Positions 23,520-34,770 of a stretch of DNA of 64,000 bases are shown here, one piece after another (the stretch's first letter is position 1; each line of letters starts with the position of its first letter). The stretch is from assembly GCF_013167455.1 (NCBI RefSeq), contig NZ_CP038328.1; one strand, given 5' to 3'. The notes beneath the pieces were generated by a model. That model was given only the letters and a program-made list of their open reading frames with translations, was not told the DNA's origin and ran no database searches. The position numbers and the translations under genes are program-made. Source of the DNA: Escherichia coli O157:H7. Its GTDB lineage: Bacteria; Pseudomonadota; Gammaproteobacteria; Enterobacterales; Enterobacteriaceae.

Positions 23520-24272
23520 TCATCTCGTCACTTTCCTCAATTGTGTCTCAGCATACGCTTCTTCCTGCCAGCACTTTGTAACCAGTTTATCAATGACATC
23601 TGCATATCCTTTGTACCACTGATAATCCGTCAGGTCTGGTACCAGCTTCTGGACATGAAGCCGCGCCAGTGTGGTTGGTAAACGGCTAAACCGGTTTCCA
23701 TTGCAACGCCCACAAACCTTATAAACAGGCGTGCCATGAAGCCTGGTTCTTTTTTCATCCAGGACAATACCTTTACCCTTACACCCTCTGCACGCTGTGC
23801 TGACTTCTCCCTTACCATGACAATGCTGACACAGTTCCTTCACCCACTCTTCCTTGATAACAGATTCCCCGCTTCTGGAGTGTTTCACCACCTCGCGCAA
23901 TACATCATGAAATCCAGTACCAGCACAATGCTCACAGCGAGCCTTACTTGCCGCAGACCTGGAATAATCAGCAAAGGCAAAATTCACAAGGTAAGGAATG
24001 ATCTGTAGCCGGGTTTCTTCACTCAATTTGTTCAATGTCGGGTTATCCAGTGCCATCGCGTAATTGAGCAGACCTTCAATCGCAAACTGAGGATCCTGAA
24101 CACCAACTTTTGCCAGGAATAAGGCAAACCCAAGCGGTGCTTTCGACTGCACCATCCCCTGCGCAGCCATTACATCCGTAATTGTTAAACCACCAGAGCC
24201 TGTCGCCGGTGCGTCATCGCTCAATTTTGGAGATTTTGGGGAGTAATATTTCGGTAAGGCTTCAAAGTTCAT
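23520..24272 (-). CDS. Q: Late-gene antitermination protein Q
   Basis: 250 aa with CxxC...CxxC zinc-binding motifs (CEHCAGTG, CQHCHGKG, CRGCKGKG), followed by promoter and terminator. Confidence 0.85.
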   Translation of the reverse strand: MNFEALPKYYSPKSPKLSDDAPATGSGGLTITDVMAAQGMVQSKAPLGFALFLAKVGVQDPQFAIEGLLNYAMALDNPTLNKLSEETRLQIIPYLVNFAFADYSRSAASKARCEHCAGTGFHDVLREVVKHSRSGESVIKEEWVKELCQHCHGKGEVSTACRGCKGKGIVLDEKRTRLHGTPVYKVCGRCNGNRFSRLPTTLARLHVQKLVPDLTDYQWYKGYADVIDKLVTKCWQEEAYAETQLRKVTR

Positions 24273-27968: not shown

Positions 27969-28906
27969 CCCCTGAATCCTGCCGGGATCTGGCTGTAGTC
28001 CACGTTGTCGTAACTGGCTTTGAAGTACGGGTCCTCGCGTTTTTCGGTGTACGTGCTGACGGACGGCGATAAGCGCAGGGAAAGCTCATCCCATTTTTCC
28101 CGCAGCTTCGACGGGCTGAGCACGTTACGGCACCAGAACGGATCGCGACTGACGCGGCTGTACATCTCGCAGATTTGTTTATGAGTACGACCATCCTGCA
28201 CACACATCAGGCGAATTTCGTTTGCCCAGGCTGTCCAGTTCGGTTCTTTGGGACGAACCACCTCGCCGTCACATTCGGCGGCATGCTCGTACAGGGCGAT
28301 GATTTTTTTCCAGAGCCACTGTGCACAGGTCAAATCATCCTGCGTCCCCCACTGGCGCTTTTTAGGGCTGAATACAACCGCATCAGGATGGCGAGTTAAA
28401 AAATCCTGTTCATCCGTCTGCGTGTCCGGTTGCGAAGCGTCCGGACGAGAAGGTTTTTTATCTGACGGATCATGTTTTGATTTTACTGACGGATCCCCGC
28501 CAGATTCTGACGGGTGAAAACCCGCTTTTTTGCCAGATTTCGACGCATCAAATTTTGACGGGTCAGATTTTGATGCGTCAGATTTTGACGGGTCAGAATC
28601 TGACAGTTGAGAAAATGCCGCTGCCTGAAGCTTCGCAACGTTAAGCTGATAAACATTCGACGCATTGCGGTTACCCTGGCGACGCGCCTTACGCGTTAAC
28701 CAGCCTTCTGCTTCCAGCCGTGCGATAGCCGTTCTGACGGTGCTCATCCCCGCGCCAATCTGGCGGGCAATGGTTTCAATTGATGGCCAGCACACACCTT
28801 CGTCATTACTGAAATCAGCCAGGCGGGCCATAATTGCCACGCTGGATAACTTCATGCCTGACGCAGCGCAACCATCCCATACATAGCCGGTTAATTTAGT
28901 GCTCAT
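27965..28906 (-). CDS. Replication initiator (lambda O-like) with internal iterons
   Basis: 313 aa; N-terminal winged-helix region, central repetitive SDSDPSKSDASKSDPSKFDASKS linker encoded by the iteron array. Confidence 0.7.
   Translation of the reverse strand: MSTKLTGYVWDGCAASGMKLSSVAIMARLADFSNDEGVCWPSIETIARQIGAGMSTVRTAIARLEAEGWLTRKARRQGNRNASNVYQLNVAKLQAAAFSQLSDSDPSKSDASKSDPSKFDASKSGKKAGFHPSESGGDPSVKSKHDPSDKKPSRPDASQPDTQTDEQDFLTRHPDAVVFSPKKRQWGTQDDLTCAQWLWKKIIALYEHAAECDGEVVRPKEPNWTAWANEIRLMCVQDGRTHKQICEMYSRVSRDPFWCRNVLSPSKLREKWDELSLRLSPSVSTYTEKREDPYFKASYDNVDYSQIPAGFRG
28450..28610. repeat. Iteron array / phage origin of replication inside the initiator gene
   Basis: About eight imperfect direct repeats of the tttTGACGGGTCA type at roughly 18-19 bp spacing. 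Confidence 0.7.
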
Positions 28907-28915
28907 GACCGACCT

Positions 28916-29254
28916 CTATTTCCCTGAATTTACGACGAAACTGTTCGAGCGGGCTGAAGCACTCATGCTCATAGCCTTCGCGGAGGTAGATAACCCGTTG
29001 TGTTTCCGGTTCCCAACGAATGACTCTGACGGGCACTCCGTAGTGATCTTTGAACCAGCGGTTAACTTGTCGCAAAGGACTGTCTCCTTTTGCCTGTTGA
29101 AATCACCCACAGCCCACTCTGCAAAGCTGTGGGTTACAATTTCCCTGTCACCTGGTACATTCACTGCATAGCAATACTCCACCTTCGCTTTTCCACCCGG
29201 TACAGGAAGTGCAATCAGTTGCGAGCGACGGTAGTGTGTTGTTAAACTGTTCAT
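28916..29254 (-). CDS. Hypothetical early protein (e14 YmfM-like position)
   Basis: 112 aa ORF between the CII-like gene and the replication initiator. Confidence 0.4.
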
Positions 29255-29802
29255 GCGTTAGTTTCTCCACAGTCACGACACGCCACGGCGCCCGGAGCTG
29301 CACACTCGCGGGCGTCATTACTTTCTGAAATGCAAAAAATTTTGTAGACCAGTGCTGCATGCTCCTGCAGCTTCGAAATTGAGAGGTACAGCTCGTCGTT
29401 AATTGCTGTCTTCTCATGCGGTTCCACTACACCGTCTTCAATTGCTGAACGAATCTGTTTTGAATAACTGCCGATCTGTTCAATGACCTCCAGCAGGCGT
29501 TGGTTGATATCGGCGTTGTCCACATCCTCGACATCAGGAAGAGACACAAAGACGCCATTTGCAGACTGCGCCACAGCGTCAGCAATGAAGTGAGTTCCAC
29601 CAGCACGTTGCAAAATCATTGCCCATCCCAGCGGGAAAATCTGATCGCCATCGGCACGAAGGCGGTTAAATAATGCGTTCTCTGTTACATCCAGCCAGTC
29701 AGCAGCTTCAGCGTACCCCCCCGGCAACGCTGCGATAGTTTTTCTGACAGCTTTCACGTACCACTCAGGCTGTTTTTCTACTTTCCAGTGATGCTTACCC
29801 AC
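29251..29802 (-). CDS. Phage regulatory protein, CII-like (e14 YmfL-like position)
   Basis: 183 aa, GTG start preceded by AGGAGG, immediately downstream of cro. Confidence 0.45.
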
Positions 29803-30055
29803 GGTTCACCTCCTGTTCCTGTGGTTTAAACCCATTCTGGTTTTGGCTAGATTGAAAACGTGCCGGATAAAGAATCTGCATTTCGCTGACTTCACCCTTA
29901 AAAAAATTGGCTAAACGTTCTGCAAGCTCGATAGATGGAATCTGCTCCAGCCTCTCAATACGACTCAACGTCGCTGGATTGACTTGAACACCCGCAGCAA
30001 CATGCTGCAAAGTGAAACCATGCGCCTTACGCACATTTCGTAATGGTGATTGCAT
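29795..30055 (-). CDS. cro: Cro-like HTH repressor
   Basis: 86 aa; XRE-type HTH (..VRKAHGFTLQHVAAGVQVNPATLSRIERLEQIPSIELAERLANFF..); divergent from cI. Confidence 0.8.
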   Translation of the reverse strand: MQSPLRNVRKAHGFTLQHVAAGVQVNPATLSRIERLEQIPSIELAERLANFFKGEVSEMQILYPARFQSSQNQNGFKPQEQEVNRG

Positions 30056-30152: not shown

Positions 30153-30845
30153 ATGAACATAGGAAACCGAGTCAGACAACTTCGCCAAGCGAAGAACATG
30201 AAAATCGCCGATCTCGCTGAAGCGATAGGAGTAGATGCGGCGAACATCTCGCGCTTAGAAACGGGTAAGCAAAAACAATTTACCGAACAAACACTGAGTA
30301 ATATTGCCAAGAGCTTAGGTGTTGATATTGCTGATCTCTTTACCTCTGCCCACAAAAGTAATACTGTATATAAAAACAGTAATAATGAGGATGTTGCGCA
30401 GGTGAAGGATGTGTTCCGTATTGAAATGCTGGATATCAGTGCCAGTGCGGGAAATGGCCTTATCCAGGGCGGTGATGTCATTGATGTGATTCATGCCATC
30501 GAATACAGAACTGATAATGCTGTATCAATGTTCGGCGGACGACCAGCCAATCACATCAAAGTTATCAACGTTCGTGGGGACAGTATGTGTCCAACCATTG
30601 AGCCAGGAGATCTCATCTTCGTTGATGTCAGCATCAATCAGTTTGATGGTGATGGTATATATGTCTTTGGTTTTGATGACAAAATATACGTTAAAAGACT
30701 TCAAATGATTCCTGACAAACTGCTGGTGATTTCTGATAACCAGATTTACCGTGAATGGGGAATTACTAGCGAAAACGAACACCGATTCATGGTCTTTGGA
30801 AAGGTCTTAATCAGTCAGTCGCAAACCCTTAAGAGACATAATTAA
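30153..30845 (+). CDS. cI: CI-type prophage repressor (HTH plus S24 LexA-like peptidase domain)
   Basis: 230 aa; N-terminal HTH (..IADLAEAIGVDAANISRLETGK..), C-terminal ..GDSMCPTIEPGDLIFVD...KRL.. autocleavage domain. Confidence 0.9.
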   Translation: MNIGNRVRQLRQAKNMKIADLAEAIGVDAANISRLETGKQKQFTEQTLSNIAKSLGVDIADLFTSAHKSNTVYKNSNNEDVAQVKDVFRIEMLDISASAGNGLIQGGDVIDVIHAIEYRTDNAVSMFGGRPANHIKVINVRGDSMCPTIEPGDLIFVDVSINQFDGDGIYVFGFDDKIYVKRLQMIPDKLLVISDNQIYREWGITSENEHRFMVFGKVLISQSQTLKRHN

Positions 30846-30862
30846 CCTCAATATCCCATCCA

Positions 30863-30888
30863 TCGGCCACCGAAAGGTGGCTTTTTAT
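30863..30888 (+). terminator. Rho-independent terminator after cI
   Basis: cggccacc gaaa ggtggc followed by TTTTTATT. Confidence 0.8.
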
Positions 30889-30898
30889 TACCTATAAA

Positions 30899-30949
30899 TT
30901 TGCATATCTCGCAAATACCACTTGCATATCTCGCAATTTAATTTTATCT
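30899..30949 (+). promoter_or_regulatory. Left operator / pL-like promoter: two 15-bp direct repeats TTGCATATCTCGCAA
   Basis: Repeats at 30899-30913 and 30921-30935 (22 bp centre to centre), same TTGC-N7-GCAA pattern as the right operator; TTGCAT -35 at 30921-30926, 17-bp spacer, TATCTT -10 at 30944-30949. Confidence 0.5.
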
Positions 30950-31140
30950 TTTATTCCAGACCAACTACAGGATTACAACAAAATCTGGTTGCAACACGGT
31001 GCATGTGTCGTAAGCAGTCAGTAAATGTCAAAAACGAACAGGCAGGACGCCCACGAAGTAGCCGCCTGGGGCATATGAAGTCCAGGATGATTCGTTGAGT
31101 CATGTTGTGCCACTAGGCACTCATGTTAAAGCAGGTGTAT

Positions 31141-31419
31141 GAAATGAAAGTCCAGATTTTAAACAATAACTGTGAAGTCGTTTGGTCATACGACATAGCC
31201 GCCCCTGTAGATCAGAGCGGCGATAGCTGGACCAATGGGAAACATCAGATTATGGCTGGAGTTGTGTTCTCTTTACGCCGTGCTTTAGAACAGGCTGAAG
31301 TCTTTCCATCAGACCCTGAATGGAAATGGCCTTTTTCTATTTGTCCAAATTCGGAGAGTACATTTCAGAAAATTGGTCAGAAAGTCGCACTCGAAGAGCA
31401 TCAGCCAACTGTTTCCTGA
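31141..31419 (+). CDS. Hypothetical small protein (early-left operon)
   Basis: ORF 31123..31419; ATG at 31141 with AGGTG upstream; no family recognised; 3' end overlaps a convergent ORF. Confidence 0.35.
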   Translation, partial: EMKVQILNNNCEVVWSYDIAAPVDQSGDSWTNGKHQIMAGVVFSLRRALEQAEVFPSDPEWKWPFSICPNSESTFQKIGQKVALEEHQPTVS

Positions 31420-31582
31420 TTTTTTCAGGTAACTCGTCGGCATCGCAGAAACAACAACGCTCGATCATGTTGAAAGCCGATTCGTAGAACTGTTTTTGCT
31501 GAGTGTCGCTGAGACAGGAAAAGAGCGACGTTACGATGATTTTATTAATTGCATTATCAAGTTCTTTTTCATCAAAAGTCAT
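31337..31582 (-). CDS. Hypothetical small protein, convergent to the early-left operon
   Basis: 81 aa; strong AAGGAAAA Shine-Dalgarno 7 nt before ATG at 31582; contains CCFC motif; no family recognised. Confidence 0.4.
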   Translation of the reverse strand: MTFDEKELDNAINKIIVTSLFSCLSDTQQKQFYESAFNMIERCCFCDADELPEKIRKQLADALRVRLSDQFSEMYSPNLDK

Positions 31583-31837
31583 TTGATTTTCCTTTTATGT
31601 ATACGGGCTTAAAAGGATACCACCGAGCCTGAAGTGGTGAAAAGACAGGCACATAACAGCTAAGTATTTTCAACCAGAGAGAATCCTTAGCGTTGTGGTG
31701 AATGCGGCTCAGCGCACGCGGGTTAAGGTTGAGGCTGACAGTCGACCTTCTGTGGATACCCACCCGCCTGGTGTGCAACCTTCGCCAGGCACCGGGAGGC
31801 ACCCGGCACCACAACTTTATGCTGTGTGTAGTCTTAG

Positions 31838-31882
31838 CGGTACCAGCTTGTACCCTTGCTTCCGGCTGGTACCGTCCTTTTT
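31838..31882 (+). terminator. Terminator-like hairpin (10-bp perfect GC-rich stem plus U-run)
   Basis: cggtaccagc (31838-31847), 17-nt loop, gctggtaccg (31865-31874), then TCCTTTTT. Confidence 0.5.
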
Positions 31883-31971
31883 ACAAAACAGAGAAGAGCA
31901 TCACCGGACGACGGGCTCATAACCCAATCCATCCGGGCGGCTGCCACCGCAGGTGTTCTTCTCTGTTTTGT
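31883..31971. other. Long-range 15-bp inverted repeat enclosing a GC-rich loop (structured non-coding element)
   Basis: acaaaacagagaaga at 31883-31897 pairs perfectly with tcttctctgttttgt at 31957-31971; further GC hairpin gcccc tac ggggc at about 31984-31996. Confidence 0.4.
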
Positions 31972-32095
31972 GGAGAAACTAACCGCCCCTACGGGGGCAT
32001 TTATGGAAATGTAATTGACTCAATAATCGCCGGACGGTGAGGGCTTCCTTTTACCCGAATTCAGCGCGGTGCAGCGCATATACGTGGAGAACAAA

Positions 32096-32632
32096 ATGTC
32101 ATTTATTAAAACTTTTTCCGGGAAGCATTTTTATTATGACAGGATAAATAAAGACGACATCGTTATTTACGATATCGCGGTTTCCCTTTCAAATATCTGT
32201 CGCTTTGCAGGACATCTTTCACACTTCTACAGTGTCGCCCAACATGCGGTGCTTTGCAGCCAGCTGGTGCCACAGGAATTTGCTTTTGAAGCTTTAATGC
32301 ATGATGCAACAGAAGCATATTGCCAGGACATCCCCGCACCACTGAAACGACTTCTTCCTGACTATAAACGGATGGAAGAAAAAATAGACGCCGTAATACG
32401 TGAGAAATACGGGTTACCTCCTGTTATGAGCACGCCAGTGAAATATGCCGATCTCATTATGCTGGCAACCGAACGCCGCGATCTCGGGCTTGATGATGGC
32501 TCTTTCTGGCCTGTACTGGAAGGTATCCCGGCAACAGAGATGTTCAAAGTGATTCCACAGGCACCGGGCCATGCCTACGGGATGTTTATGGAACGTTTTA
32601 ACGAGTTATCGGAGTTACGCAAATGCGCATGA
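32096..32632 (+). CDS. HD-domain phosphohydrolase (YfdR-like 5'-nucleotidase family)
   Basis: Start MSFIKTF... after GGAGAA; H..HD motif in ..SVAQHAVLCSQLV...ALMHDATEAYCQDIP.. Confidence 0.8.
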   Translation: MSFIKTFSGKHFYYDRINKDDIVIYDIAVSLSNICRFAGHLSHFYSVAQHAVLCSQLVPQEFAFEALMHDATEAYCQDIPAPLKRLLPDYKRMEEKIDAVIREKYGLPPVMSTPVKYADLIMLATERRDLGLDDGSFWPVLEGIPATEMFKVIPQAPGHAYGMFMERFNELSELRKCA

Positions 32633-33290: not shown

Positions 33291-33640
33291 TGGAGCCATA
33301 CAGCCTCACACTCGATGAGGCCTGTCATTTTCTCAAGATATCCAGACCGACTGCCATTAACTGGATACGCACAGGGCGTCTTCAGGCAACACGCAAAGAT
33401 CCCACTAAGAATAAATCTCCTTACCTCACAACACGACAAGCCTGCATTGCGGCTCTTCAGTCTCCGCTGCATACTGTCCAGGTGAGCGCGGGTGATGGCA
33501 TAACAGAGGAAAGAAAATGTCACTCTTCCGCAGAGGTGAAATATGGTACGCCAGTTTCACATTGCCGAACGGTAAAAGATTTAAACAGTCTCTTGGAACA
33601 AAGGACAAAAGGCAGGCGACAGAACTCCATGACAAGCTAA
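33290..33640 (+). CDS. xis: Excisionase (P22 Xis-like)
   Basis: 116 aa from [37 protein letters not shown]..; HTH DNA-binding region; overlaps int start by about 124 nt. Confidence 0.8.
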
Positions 33641-34680
33641 AGGCTGAAGCATGGCGGGTCAGCAAACTTGGTGAAATACCTGATATAACGTTCGAGGAAG
33701 CGTGTGTCAGGTGGCTTGAAGAGAAAGCACATAAAAAATCGCTGGACGATGACAAAAGCCGGATCGGATTCTGGCTTCAACATTTCGCAGGAATGCAACT
33801 AAGAGACATTACTGAATCAAAAATTTATTCAGCAATGCAGAAAATGACGAACCGGCGTCATGAGGAAAACTGGAAACTCAGGGCAGAAGCATGCAGAAAA
33901 AAAGGGAAACCTGTTCCAGAATACACGCCAAAACCAGCGTCCGTTGCAACGAAGGCTACGCATCTTTCATTTATAAAGGCCCTACTAAGAGCCGCAGAGC
34001 GTGAATGGAAAATGCTGGATAAGGCACCAATTATTAAAGTGCCTCAACCAAAGAATAAACGGATCCGCTGGCTGGAGCCCCATGAAGCACAAAGGCTGAT
34101 TGATGAATGTCCGGAGCCATTAAAGTCTGTTGTTGAATTTGCACTGGCAACAGGCTTAAGACGCTCGAACATCATCAACCTTGAATGGCAACAAATAGAT
34201 ATGCAGCGCCGGGTGGCATGGATAAACCCGGAAGAGAGTAAATCAAACCGCGCAATTGGCGTTGCGCTGAATGATACTGCATGTCGCGTATTGAAAAAAC
34301 AAATCGGGAATCATCACCGTTGGGTATTTGTGTACAAGGAAAGCTGTACCAAACCAGACGGAACGAAAGCGCCAACAGTAAGGAAGATGCGGTATGACGC
34401 AAACACAGCCTGGAAAGCGGCGCTGAGACGGGCTGGTATTGATGATTTCAGATTTCACGACTTGAGACACACCTGGGCAAGTTGGCTGGTTCAAGCCGGA
34501 GTCCCGTTGTCAGTGTTACAGGAAATGGGAGGCTGGGAGTCTATCGAAATGGTTCGTCGATATGCTCACCTTGCACCTAATCACCTTACCGAACACGCAC
34601 GGCAAATAGACTCGATCCTGAACCCATCGGTCCCAAATTTGTCCCAGTCAAAAAATAAGGAAGGTACTAATGATGTGTAA
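33517..34680 (+). CDS. int: Tyrosine integrase (P22 Int-type, thrW-specific)
   Basis: 387 aa [22 protein letters not shown]...; C-terminal [16 protein letters not shown]...VRRYAHL catalytic motifs; stop 15 nt from the tRNA 3' end. Confidence 0.95.
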
Positions 34681-34694
34681 CTTATTGATTTTAA

Positions 34695-34770
34695 TGGTGC
34701 CGATAATAGGAGTCGAACCTACGACCTTCGCATTACGAATGCGCTGCTCTACCAACTGAGCTATATCGGC
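34695..34770 (-). tRNA. thrW: tRNA-Thr (anticodon CGU)
   Basis: Minus-strand gccgatatagctcagttggtagagcagcgcattcgtaatgcgaaggtcgtaggttcgactcctattatcggcacca; cloverleaf with GGTTCGA T-loop, anticodon loop uuCGUaa, encoded CCA. Confidence 0.95.

What the first reader, a model, noticed from the sequence alone, without database searches (positions are those of the whole stretch)
31600..32060. Densely structured GC-rich non-coding block in the early-left operon
Between the repressor region and the HD hydrolase gene lies about 450 bp with no credible ORF but unusually strong secondary-structure potential: a perfect 10-bp GC-rich hairpin followed by a U-run (31838-31882), immediately followed by a perfect 15-bp long-range inverted repeat (31883-31897 with 31957-31971) enclosing a GC-rich loop, then a further gcccc/ggggc hairpin. 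This could be an antitermination-controlled terminator cluster, a structured small RNA, or a recombination site.
Basis: seen in the sequence. Interest (0 to 1): 0.55.

Follow-up and report, generated by a model that had tools for sequence, protein, structure and literature searches.

The report
Prophage small-RNA locus, DicF/STnc100 type
The block is a non-coding RNA locus in the early-left operon of an SfV/e14-like prophage: a pseudoknotted STnc100-family RNA domain joined to a DicF-like small RNA with its terminator, followed by a second conserved RNA fold with no Rfam match. The kinds are known, but this variant is unannotated or mis-annotated as a protein (YmfH in E. coli K-12).

Summary
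The plus strand folds far better than shuffles (z -7.5).

Positions 31692-31815 form a five-helix, pseudoknotted RNA domain of the STnc100/PasD/EcOnc27 prophage sRNA family:
- Rfam RF02076 gives 43 bits against a cut-off of 47, E 7e-7.
- My own model gives 84 bits.
- 20 of 25 nested pairs covary.
- The pseudoknot shows 32 distinct complementary strand pairs.

The conserved single strand plus the 10-bp hairpin and U-run (31820-31882) is a distant DicF homologue. A model trained without DicF finds K-12 DicF (27.4 bits, E 0.0017).

The 15-bp inverted repeat is the outer stem of a conserved three-way junction (31883-31971). It has no Rfam match, covaries and occurs in at least 120 viral contigs.

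[quoted passage not shown] This would give Hfq-type sRNAs of about 190 and 60 nt. Read-through RNA carries the junction as leader of the downstream genes.

No evidence supports a put-like antiterminator, a recombination site or a coding gene.

Verdict: new variant of known kinds; moderate interest.

The parts
30900..30950 (+). Putative OL operators (TTGCATATCTCGCAA at 30900 and 30923) and the PL promoter (TTGCAT, 17 nt, TATCTT) that would drive the block. Context only, not part of the finding.
   Evidence: Read from the sequence. The same arrangement occurs in mEp460. The cI-like repressor at 30153-30845 lies just upstream. The consensus scan did not list this promoter.
31619..31659 (+). Conserved 5' flank: a small hairpin (31619-31638) and the motif AAAAGACAGGCACAUAACAG.
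   Evidence: Conserved in SfV-type loci of E. coli and Cronobacter, partly in Salmonella. In the minimum-energy fold it pairs with 31820-31835. That helix is not supported by covariation.
31659..31691 (+). Hairpin P0, immediately 5' of the core.
   Evidence: 13-nt arms, 85% complementary. -11.8 kcal/mol, z -5.7. Relatives carry hairpins of different sequence at the same place.
31692..31815 (+). STnc100/PasD-family core domain. P1 is 31692-31700 with 31807-31815; P2 is 31704-31719; P3 is about 31720-31723 with 31762-31765; P4 is 31766-31773 with 31783-31790; P5 is 31792-31806. The pseudoknot pairs AAGGUUG (31725-31731) with CAACCUU (31776-31782) in the P4 loop.
   Evidence: Rfam RF02076: 43 bits, E 7e-7, cut-off 47. 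Model R1: 84.4 bits. 95.8% of cells paired against about 40% in slid controls, and 20 of 25 pairs have compensatory changes. Pseudoknot: 32 distinct strand pairs, native score 6.5 against 3.8 when swapped.
31820..31836 (+). Conserved single-stranded motif UGCUGUGUGUAGUCUU(A). It occupies the position of the DicF seed and is the candidate base-pairing region.
   Evidence: Conserved across E. coli, Salmonella and Cronobacter versions. It aligns with the 5' single strand of K-12 DicF. No complementary site exists elsewhere in the window.
31836..31882 (+). Intrinsic terminator T1: a 10-12 bp G+C-rich stem with a 17-nt loop, then UCCUUUUU. It is DicF-type (GGCGGUAYCAG...CUGGUACCGCC in relatives).
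   Evidence: Perfect arms. -20.9 kcal/mol, z -4.7. Stems covary among relatives. Model R2, trained without DicF, hits DicF at 27.4 bits, E 0.0017. Rfam DicF scores only 13.5 bits here.
31883..31971 (+). Element 2, a conserved three-way junction. The outer stem is 31883-31902 with 31952-31971. Hairpin A (31904-31936) carries the invariant GACGGGCUCAUAACCCAAUCCA, including GGG-CUCAUAA-CCC (31913-31925). Hairpin B (31937-31950) is variable.
   Evidence: -45.5 kcal/mol, z -7.3. No Rfam family matches and it is not called as a tRNA. 93.3% of cells paired against 37-53% in slid controls, with 6 pairs showing double changes. Hairpin B changes sequence and length freely. Found in at least 120 viral contigs.
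31972..31998 (+). GGAGAAAC (Shine-Dalgarno-like) followed by the small hairpin GCCCC-UACG-GGGGC (31985-31998).
   Evidence: -12 kcal/mol. GGAGAAA follows element 2 in nearly all E. coli and Salmonella versions. In SfV this spot is followed by orf32. The window's hairpin is a hybrid left by a deletion of two genes.
32096..32632 (+). First downstream gene, an HD-domain deoxyribonucleoside 5'-monophosphate phosphatase. Context only.
   Evidence: PHROG 318, E 2.5e-108.

Best explanation
The block is a non-coding RNA locus inside the early-left (PL) operon of an SfV/e14-type lambdoid prophage. Its layout is equivalent to the dicF locus of the Qin dicBF operon.

Three modules lie on the plus strand:
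1. A domain of about 125 nt closed by helix P1, with five helices and a pseudoknot. It belongs to the STnc100/PasD/EcOnc27 family of prophage Hfq-binding sRNAs.
2. Directly after it, a DicF-like unit: a conserved single-stranded 'seed' followed by an intrinsic terminator.
3. A conserved three-way-junction RNA that leads into the Shine-Dalgarno region of the next early gene.

Proposed working; this part is inferred, not shown. When the repressor is lost, PL transcripts run into the block and most end at the U-run near 31882. RNase III and RNase E trim the 5' side, as they do for DicF. This would leave a species of about 190 nt (core plus DicF-like unit; 31692-31882 is 191 nt) and a species of about 60 nt. 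These would act in trans with Hfq through 31820-31836, while the core serves as a stable scaffold or protein-binding domain. The transcripts that read through carry element 2 as a 5' leader. Its 20-23 bp outer stem is a plausible RNase III site for the downstream genes up to xis and int.

Shown here: the structures, their covariation, their family relationships and their genomic context. Inferred: the processing, Hfq dependence, trans action and targets.
For: Family relationship of the core:
- Rfam STnc100 E 7e-7; R1 84.4 bits.
- R1 also finds copies that were not in its training set: phage P1's ban operon (73.8 bits), K-12 e14 (67.9 bits), and K-12 Qin between dicF and dicB (72.8 bits).

Structure:
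- 95.8% paired against about 40% in slid controls, 20 of 25 pairs compensatory.
- Pseudoknot with 32 distinct strand pairs, Fisher p about 1e-23.

Family members are real Hfq-dependent sRNAs: PasD by northern blot and RIL-seq (PMC8550237), and EcOnc27/sRNA103 downstream of stx2B (PMC12711010).

DicF-likeness of 31820-31882:
- Alignment A4.
- Rfam DicF 29.6 bits in a close relative.
- R2, trained without DicF, finds K-12 DicF at E 0.0017 as the only foreign hit in 133 kb.

DicF biology: it is processed from the polycistronic dicBp transcript into 190-nt (RNase III) and 53-nt (RNase E) species (10.1101/2023.04.14.536235).

Context:
- Same position and orientation in SfV, ST64B, phiES15, e14 and mEp460: between cI and the early-left genes.
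- No sigma-70 promoter at the fixed position seen in stand-alone members.
- Plus strand favoured.
- In K-12, the e14 genes ymfJ (upstream of the block) and intE (downstream) are co-induced late in the SOS response (PMC11002266).
Against: - Both Rfam memberships fail the curated cut-offs (43 against 47 bits; 13.5 against 48 bits).
- No transcript ends, Hfq binding or targets are known for this variant.
- The U-run has only five U's.
- In the minimum-energy fold the proposed seed is paired with the 5' flank.
- P1 and several relatives carry the core without a terminator or a DicF-like unit. The conserved function may therefore reside in the core and not in base pairing.
- No function can be assigned to element 2.
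Confidence: 0.6

Rival explanations
1. Cis-acting processive antitermination RNA, working like HK022 put or Bacillus EAR. The folded core would modify RNA polymerase so that it reads through T1 and later terminators to reach xis and int in a phage that has no N protein.
For: - No N-like protein was found in the PL operon.
- At least one strong terminator lies between PL and int, yet e14 intE is induced together with ymfJ.
- The core is a complex conserved fold sitting just upstream of terminators.
Against: - No sequence or model similarity to HK022 put.
- No second copy in the PR operon.
- Stand-alone family members have their own promoter and terminator and are followed by convergent terminators, so there is nothing downstream to antiterminate.
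- In Qin the core lies after the DicF terminator, not before it.
- Canonical copies sit in late operons that the Q protein already antiterminates.
Confidence: 0.07
2. Purely cis-acting terminator and processing cluster (a tL-type attenuator or insulator). It would limit and shape expression of the early-left genes and int, and the released RNAs would have no trans function.
For: - T1 and the long outer stem of element 2 sit in tandem between upstream and downstream gene groups.
- Gene cassettes are swapped or deleted at these hairpins.
- No target complementarity was found in the window.
Against: - A simple attenuator does not need a 125-nt five-helix pseudoknotted domain with invariant loops.
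- The same domain exists as a free-standing gene with its own promoter in other phages.
- It belongs to families with demonstrated Hfq-dependent sRNAs.
- The single-stranded motif is conserved in sequence across genera.
Confidence: 0.15
3. tRNA-derived decoy or scaffold RNAs. The core (P1 like an acceptor stem, P5 like a T arm) and element 2 (a hairpin identical to the three-G-C anticodon stem and loop of initiator tRNA) would bind tRNA-recognising proteins, such as processing enzymes, anticodon nucleases or defence systems, and would not pair with mRNAs.
For: - In a related contig the same P1-closed slot holds a tRNA-like sequence that reaches the Rfam tRNA cut-off. Its T-arm stem CCGGG/CCCGG equals P5.
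- The core and element 2 flank real tRNA genes in Klebsiella phages, and the core lies in the tRNA-rich ban operon of P1.
- The interior of the slot is hypervariable between related phages.
- A ymfH clone triggered the retron-Sen2 toxin in a screen (10.1101/2020.06.22.160242).
Against: - Neither ARAGORN nor the Rfam tRNA model detects anything tRNA-like in the window block.
- The P5 loop has 5 nt, not a 7-nt T loop.
- The match to initiator tRNA is 13-14 nt recalled from memory and found post hoc, and the e14 copy has lost it.
- The retron result was attributed to a protein clone and was not followed up.
Confidence: 0.1
4. A protein-coding gene, a homologue of ymfH, as annotated in RefSeq.
For: A 112-codon ORF spans 31702-32040. 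It is annotated as a hypothetical protein or YmfH in many genomes.
Against: - Homologous cores differ in length by non-multiples of three.
- e14 has a 1-nt deletion relative to the window inside the ORF.
- Substitutions are compensatory in RNA helices.
- ST64B and SfV annotators called no gene here.
- The G+C-rich sequence gives long stop-free stretches in several frames.
Confidence: 0.02

Closest known systems
STnc100 (Rfam RF02076), which includes EcOnc27/sRNA103 downstream of stx2B, and the related PasD1/PasD2 sRNAs of EPEC
   Same: Same core architecture and invariant motifs: UGGUGAAU, the P2 loop, and ACCGGGAGGCACCCGGCACCA. Both are prophage-borne, are followed by a linker and an intrinsic terminator, and are found in enterobacterial lambdoid phages.
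   Different: This variant scores below the Rfam cut-off. P2 is GCG/CGC instead of CCCC/GGGG and P3 is longer. It has no promoter of its own and is embedded in the early-left operon, not in the late region near Q, stx and the lysis genes. Its linker and terminator are DicF-like. The pseudoknot shown here is not mentioned in the one comparative paper on the family that I could read.
DicF (Rfam RF00039) and the dicBF operon of the Qin prophage
   Same: Same operon position: downstream of the repressor-controlled early promoter and upstream of early-left genes. Both have a single-stranded 5' part followed by a GGCGGUAYCAG...CCGCC hairpin and U-run. Both are preceded by structured RNA, which for DicF gives a 190-nt precursor. 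Qin also carries an STnc100-family core next to dicF.
   Different: The seed sequence differs (UGCUGUGUGUAGUCUU against UUUCUGGUGACGUUU), so the targets are probably different. Rfam DicF scores only 13.5 bits here. The order of modules is core then DicF-like unit in the window, but DicF then core in Qin.
HK022 put RNAs
   Same: Both are structured RNAs in the early operon of a lambdoid phage that lacks N, lying upstream of terminators.
   Different: No sequence or structural similarity. There is a single copy only. Family members exist as autonomous terminated genes.
tRNA genes and tRNA-like phage RNAs processed from operons. P1 C4 and P4 CI are RNase P substrates; that point rests on my own knowledge and was not tested here.
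   Same: The domain is closed by a terminal helix with a 5-bp hairpin abutting its 3' strand. It co-locates with tRNA genes in P1 and in Klebsiella phages. A tRNA-like sequence occupies the same slot in one relative.
   Different: The tRNA models do not detect it. Rfam C4 gave no hit at E up to 1. Its interior is a five-way junction with a pseudoknot.

Membership tests
STnc100 (RF02076) | Covariance-model score at or above the curated gathering score (47 bits) | tested here: not met
   43.0 bits, E 7e-7, full-length match 31662-31884. The hit is not listed at the gathering threshold.
STnc100 (RF02076) | Shared core fold (P1, P2, P4, P5) with the invariant motifs UGGUGAAU and ACCGGGAGGCACCCGGCACCA | tested here: met
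   The motif occurs exactly once in the window. R1 scores 84.4 bits, although the window was in the training set. 95.8% of cells are paired across 63 sequences.
STnc100 (RF02076) | Linker and intrinsic terminator 3' of the core | tested here: met
   T1 at 31836-31882. 30 of 39 distinct canonical contexts have a terminator 29-78 nt after the core.
STnc100 (RF02076) | Expressed, Hfq-associated small RNA | not testable with these tools
   Shown for PasD and EcOnc27. No data exist for the SfV/e14 type.
STnc100 (RF02076) | Autonomous gene with its own promoter | tested here: not met
   Eight canonical contexts have a promoter matching at least 9 of 12 positions, with the -10 box ending exactly 7 nt before (U)GGUGAAU. 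No SfV-type context has one, the window included (scan).
DicF (RF00039) | Covariance-model score at or above the gathering score (48 bits) | tested here: not met
   13.5 bits, E 0.81 in the window. 29.6 bits, E 1.3e-4 in relative L217.
DicF (RF00039) | Detectable homology of the seed-plus-terminator unit to K-12 DicF | tested here: met
   R2, built only from SfV-type units, hits DicF over its full length (27.4 bits, E 0.0017, in 133 kb). Alignment A4 shows the shared positions.
DicF (RF00039) | Located in the repressor-controlled early operon and released by processing and termination | tested here: inconclusive
   The position is met. Processing could not be tested; it is known only for DicF.
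DicF (RF00039) | DicF seed sequence pairing with ftsZ, xylR, pykA and manX | tested here: not met
   The seed region differs at most positions. Pairing with those mRNAs was not computed.
HK022 put antiterminator RNA | Sequence or structure similarity to putL/putR | tested here: not met
   BLAST of the block against the HK022 genome gave chance matches only. R1 found nothing in HK022.
HK022 put antiterminator RNA | Paired copies downstream of both early promoters | tested here: not met
   A single copy in the 64-kb window.
tRNA | Cloverleaf detectable by ARAGORN or the Rfam tRNA model | tested here: not met
   The only tRNA in the window is tRNA-Thr at 34695-34770. Element 2 gives no tRNA hit at E up to 10.
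Intrinsic terminator | G+C-rich stem followed by a U-run on the transcribed strand | tested here: met
   T1: a 10-12 bp stem, -20.9 kcal/mol, then UCCUUUUU, on the plus strand only. Termination itself was not tested.
REP or transposon repeat | Multiple dispersed copies, terminal repeats, association with a transposase | tested here: not met
   Single copy in the window. All matches lie in phage or prophage immunity or late regions.

The most novel reading that the evidence does not exclude
The P1-closed slot and element 2 could be tRNA-derived RNA cassettes that act as protein-binding decoys or processing scaffolds, not as base-pairing sRNAs. Candidate partners are tRNA-processing enzymes, anticodon nucleases, or retron or other defence systems.

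Under this reading the slot would be a hypervariable RNA hot-spot in lambdoid early operons. Related phages fill it with a pseudoknotted STnc100 core, several unrelated folds, or a tRNA-like sequence. Element 2 displays an initiator-tRNA-like anticodon hairpin.
Probability: 0.12. Interest if true: 0.8.

Novelty: new variant of a known kind. Interest (0 to 1): 0.48.

Why it matters
- Prevalence. The block, or part of it, is present in 2787 of 5426 complete E. coli genomes. It is also in working phages (SfV, SfII, SfIV, ST64B, Stx2c phages).
- Annotation. It carries no RNA annotation and is often called a protein; in K-12 e14 it is ymfH.
- Link between families. STnc100/PasD/EcOnc27 and DicF are usually treated separately. 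Here they recur side by side: core then DicF-like unit in SfV-type phages, DicF then core then dicB in K-12 Qin, and both kinds of element in the P1 ban operon.
- Fold. The STnc100 core is a five-helix pseudoknotted fold with invariant loops. That is more elaborate than a plain Hfq sRNA needs, and it suggests a bound partner.
- Testability. K-12 carries copies in e14 and in Qin, so SOS induction can be used to test expression, processing and targets.
- Element 2 is a widespread conserved RNA fold that has no Rfam family.

Tried and rejected
- HK022 put. I recalled a resemblance, but BLAST and the model search found none.
- Second copy in the window (a putL/putR-like pair): none found.
- svsR, the sRNA of the SfV-like prophage NC-SV, lies at the 3' end of cI and not in this block. 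C0293 of e14 is also elsewhere.
- tRNA or pseudo-tRNA for element 2: not detected. The Klebsiella BLAST hits labelled tRNA-Arg/Asn abut the tRNA and do not overlap it.
- Rfam has no family for element 2 or for the mEp460-type domain.
- Column-wise counting of the pseudoknot failed. Loop lengths differ and the register shifts between subfamilies. I replaced it with a per-sequence test using shuffle and swap controls. The first swap control was contaminated by related classes.
- The first promoter heuristic used a wrong anchor and was redone. The terminator heuristic misses long-loop terminators such as that of ST64B.
- A long-range helix between 31640-31659 and 31820-31835 appears in the minimum-energy fold. 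Relatives show no consistent covariation for it, so I do not claim it.
- The stop-free-stretch test for coding potential was uninformative in this G+C-rich DNA.
- A search for a target complementary to the seed found only the seed's own locus in the window. A host-wide search was not possible with these tools.
- Literature searches for ymfH, e14 sRNAs and ST64B sRNAs found no description of this RNA.
Full report
**Setting**

The window holds an SfV/e14-like lambdoid prophage integrated at tRNA-Thr (34695-34770), next to proA. The immunity region reads as follows:
- cII-like gene, 29251-29802, minus strand
- cro-like gene, 29795-30055, minus strand
- cI-like repressor, 30153-30845, plus strand
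- two copies of TTGCATATCTCGCAA and a putative PL promoter at 30900-30950
- a YmfJ-like ORF, 31123-31419, plus strand, overlapped by a YmfI-like ORF on the minus strand
- the block under study
- an HD-domain dNMP phosphatase, 32096-32632
- two ORFs of unknown function, then xis and int (33517-34680)

The block therefore lies on the PL-transcribed strand, about 700 nt after the promoter. No N-like protein was found in this operon. A Q-like antiterminator is encoded at 23520-24272 for the late genes.

**Check of the observation**

Folding energies are far below those of dinucleotide shuffles:
- z -4.7 for the terminator hairpin and z -7.3 for the long hairpin
- z -7.5 for the whole plus strand of 31615-32005 (-172.4 kcal/mol)
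- z -3.3 for the minus strand (-155.4 kcal/mol)

The claim of 'no credible ORF' needs a qualification. A 112-codon ORF (31702-32040) exists and is annotated in RefSeq; in K-12 e14 it is ymfH. Homologous cores measure 110 to 117 nt, and the substitution pattern is that of RNA helices. I do not regard it as a gene.

Rfam matches 31662-31884 to STnc100 (RF02076) over the full model at 43 bits, E 7e-7, just under the 47-bit cut-off.

Published work on the family:
- STnc100 is the Hfq-bound sRNA EcOnc27/sRNA103 downstream of stx2B (PMC12711010).
- It has been proposed to share ancestry with PasD1/PasD2 of EPEC (10.64898/2026.05.13.724894).
- PasD1/PasD2 are Hfq-dependent on northern blots and in RIL-seq (PMC8550237).

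A pattern scan of viral contigs gave 120 loci and about 50 distinct cores. From 27 diverse cores I built model R1 with four nested helices.

R1 finds 65 copies in 52 sources:
- the window, 31690-31817, 84.4 bits (this sequence was in the training set)
- phage P1, between upl and tciA in the ban operon, 73.8 bits (not in the training set)
- RCS47, 77.7 bits (not in the training set)
- K-12 e14, 67.9 bits (not in the training set)

On that alignment 95.8% of cells are paired, against 38-43% when partners are slid. Twenty of 25 pairs show changes on both sides.

A further interaction is a pseudoknot. The strand starting 3-5 nt after P2 pairs with the loop of P4. In the window this is AAGGUUG (31725-31731) with CAACCUU (31776-31782). 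Across the family there are 32 different complementary strand pairs. Examples:
- CCAGUC with GACUGG
- AUCAGCA with UGCUGAU
- AAGGCUGG with UCAGCCUU
- AGACUGACA with UGUCAGUCU
- UGGUUAU with AUAACCA

The native score averages 6.5, against 3.8 when loops are swapped between classes. Combining the per-class shuffle tests gives p of about 1e-23. The classes are not fully independent.

The domain is thus a P1-closed five-helix junction with a tertiary pairing and invariant loops. The comparative preprint on the family does not mention a pseudoknot, e14 or SfV.

**Stand-alone or operon-embedded**

In eight distinct canonical contexts, a promoter matching at least 9 of 12 sigma-70 positions ends exactly 7 nt before (U)GGUGAAU. 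Thirty of 39 canonical contexts have a terminator 29-78 nt after the core. Many of these are followed by a convergent terminator. These copies are autonomous RNA genes.

The SfV-type copies, the window included, have no such promoter. Instead they carry an extra 5' hairpin (31659-31691) and a conserved upstream motif. This fits an RNA cut out of the PL transcript.

**The 10-bp hairpin is a DicF-type terminator**

Between the core and the hairpin lies UGCUGUGUGUAGUCUU (31820-31835). It is conserved in the E. coli, Salmonella and Cronobacter versions, while the hairpin stems covary.

Evidence that this unit is related to DicF:
- In a close relative (L217), Rfam matches the unit to DicF at 29.6 bits, E 1.3e-4.
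- In the window itself DicF scores only 13.5 bits.
- Alignment with K-12 DicF shows the shared GGCGGUAYCAG...CUG.UNCCGCCCUUUUU. The e14 copy is the closest.
- Model R2, built only from SfV-type units, hits K-12 DicF over its full length at 27.4 bits, E 0.0017. This is the only foreign hit in 133 kb apart from ST64B.

I conclude that 31820-31882 is a distant DicF homologue with a different seed.

The parallel goes further. In K-12 Qin, the 130 nt between dicF and dicB form an STnc100-family core. It lies at NC_000913 1649452-1649583, scores 72.8 bits, and is unannotated.

DicF is known to be processed from the polycistronic dicBp transcript. RNase III gives a 190-nt species, RNase E a 53-nt species, and the terminator sets the 3' end (10.1101/2023.04.14.536235). 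In the window, the distance from the start of P1 to the end of the U-run is 191 nt.

**The 15-bp inverted repeat is a conserved three-way junction (element 2)**

It has no Rfam match and is not called as a tRNA. A motif scan found it in at least 120 viral contigs, with about 79 distinct versions.

In an alignment of 18 variants:
- The outer stem and hairpin A are 93.3% paired, against 37-53% for slid controls.
- Six pairs change on both sides.
- A U-G pair is kept in 12 of 14 sequences, which marks the plus strand as RNA.

Hairpin B changes sequence and length freely. The 22-nt stretch GACGGGCUCAUAAYCCAAUCCA is almost invariant. Its tip, GGG-CUCAUAA-CCC, equals the anticodon stem and loop of E. 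coli initiator tRNA. That identity is from memory; it is a lead, not a result.

In E. coli and Salmonella versions the junction directly follows the T1 U-run. It is itself followed by GGAGAAA, a small hairpin and the next ORF.

In Klebsiella phages it sits in the late operon right after tRNA-Asn and tRNA-Arg. A canonical STnc100 core lies just upstream of those tRNAs. The two modules therefore travel together in two different architectures.

The U-richness of the 3' arm is not conserved, so this is not a generic terminator. Its function is unknown. My best guess is an RNase III-cleavable 5' leader of the downstream genes.

**The small hairpin and a deletion**

SfV carries two extra genes (orf32 and a DUF2303 gene) between element 2 and the phosphatase leader. 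The window, SKA5 and SfII lack them. The junction falls in the small hairpin, which is a hybrid of two similar intergenic hairpins.

**A variable slot**

Related contigs keep the flanks: P0, the helix GUUGUGG...CCACAAC, the DicF-like unit and element 2. The interior between the flanks differs:
- the STnc100 core
- a GGUAAU variant whose P5 is GGUGG/CCACC (36-40 bits with R1)
- the mEp460 and Stx2c-phage type (19-28 bits with R1; no Rfam hit)
- a short form
- in L217, a tRNA-like sequence that reaches the Rfam tRNA cut-off (29.5 bits, with a 57-nt insertion). Its T-arm stem CCGGG/CCCGG equals P5.

This suggests a tRNA-related origin or cassette exchange. It does not prove either.

**Mechanism and rivals**

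The best-supported reading is a DicF-type sRNA locus. PL transcripts terminate at T1 and are trimmed. The product acts through the conserved single strand with Hfq. The core provides stability or a protein-binding platform. Read-through transcripts continue to xis and int.

Read-through must occur: in K-12, e14 ymfJ and intE are induced together late in the SOS response (PMC11002266).

Assessment of the rivals:
- A pure attenuator does not explain the complex conserved fold.
- A coding gene is excluded in practice.
- A tRNA-mimic decoy remains an open, more novel possibility.

**Comparison with what is known, and novelty**

The components belong to known kinds (STnc100/PasD/EcOnc27, DicF). This variant differs in five ways:
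- It fails both curated Rfam cut-offs.
- It fuses the two modules into one terminated unit.
- It lacks its own promoter.
- It lies in the early-left operon.
- It is followed by an RNA fold that has no Rfam family.

It is present in about half of complete E. coli genomes. It is unannotated or annotated as a protein. I rate it a new variant of known kinds, of moderate interest.

Noticed in passing
L249 1953-2084 (NC_000913 1649452-1649583): K-12 Qin carries an unannotated STnc100-family core (R1 72.8 bits) that fills the gap between dicF and dicB. Its pseudoknot is CAGUUAA with UUAACUG.
   Followed up: partly
L003 2500-2627 (phage P1 AF234172 70076-70203); L010 2500-2628 and 1810-1948 (RCS47): Phage P1 has an unannotated STnc100-family core in the ban operon, between upl and tciA. 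Three tRNA genes and an annotated dicF-like region lie in the same stretch. RCS47 has this core and also a weak mEp460-type hit (24.5 bits).
   Followed up: partly
L007 5570-5886 (NC_000913 1201069-1201385, minus strand): The K-12 e14 gene ymfH overlaps the e14 copy of this RNA block (R1 67.9 bits, with a 1-nt deletion in the P5 loop). A ymfH clone was reported as a trigger of the retron-Sen2 toxin (10.1101/2020.06.22.160242).
   Followed up: partly
L217 about 1934-2058 (minus strand): In one viral contig, the slot that holds the core in the window contains a tRNA-like sequence. It scores 29.5 bits with the Rfam tRNA model (cut-off 29) and has a 57-nt insertion. ARAGORN does not call it.
   Followed up: partly
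L005 3308-3446; L006 3308-3446: mEp460 and Stx2a/Stx2c phages have a different 139-nt domain with the same closing helix GUUGUGGUGAAU...CACCACAAC. Its P2 loop (GGCUGAU) and last hairpin loop (AGAUCAGCA) are complementary and may form a kissing pair. It has no Rfam match.
   Followed up: partly
L023 2169-2283, 2429-2536, 3628-3744; also L020, L034, L035, L056, L057: Some viral contigs carry two or three STnc100-family genes within 0.3-1.5 kb. Each copy has a different pseudoknot sequence.
   Followed up: no
window 31123-31419 (+) and 31337-31582 (-): Two convergent ORFs overlap by 83 nt. Both match PHROG families over their full length (YmfJ-like and YmfI-like). YmfJ protein was detected in K-12 after SOS induction. 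The minus-strand ORF has a good ribosome-binding site, but no promoter for it was found.
   Followed up: partly
window 31985-31998, compared with L001 4396-4407 and 5700-5711: Relative to SfV, the window lacks two genes (orf32 and a DUF2303 gene). The deletion junction lies in a small G+C-rich hairpin that recurs at module boundaries.
   Followed up: partly
window 30900-30937: Two exact copies of TTGCATATCTCGCAA lie 23 bp apart, just after the cI terminator (30865-30882). They are probably OL operators overlapping PL.
   Followed up: no
window 28531-28605 (-): A long imperfect palindrome with repeats of CUGAC(C/G)CGUCAAAAU lies inside the O-like replication gene. It appeared as a chance miRNA hit in Rfam. 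It may be the origin iterons.
   Followed up: no
window 49249-49326 (-): Rfam naRNA4 (RF02564, a REP-derived nucleoid-associated RNA) scores above its gathering score in the host DNA flanking the prophage.
   Followed up: no
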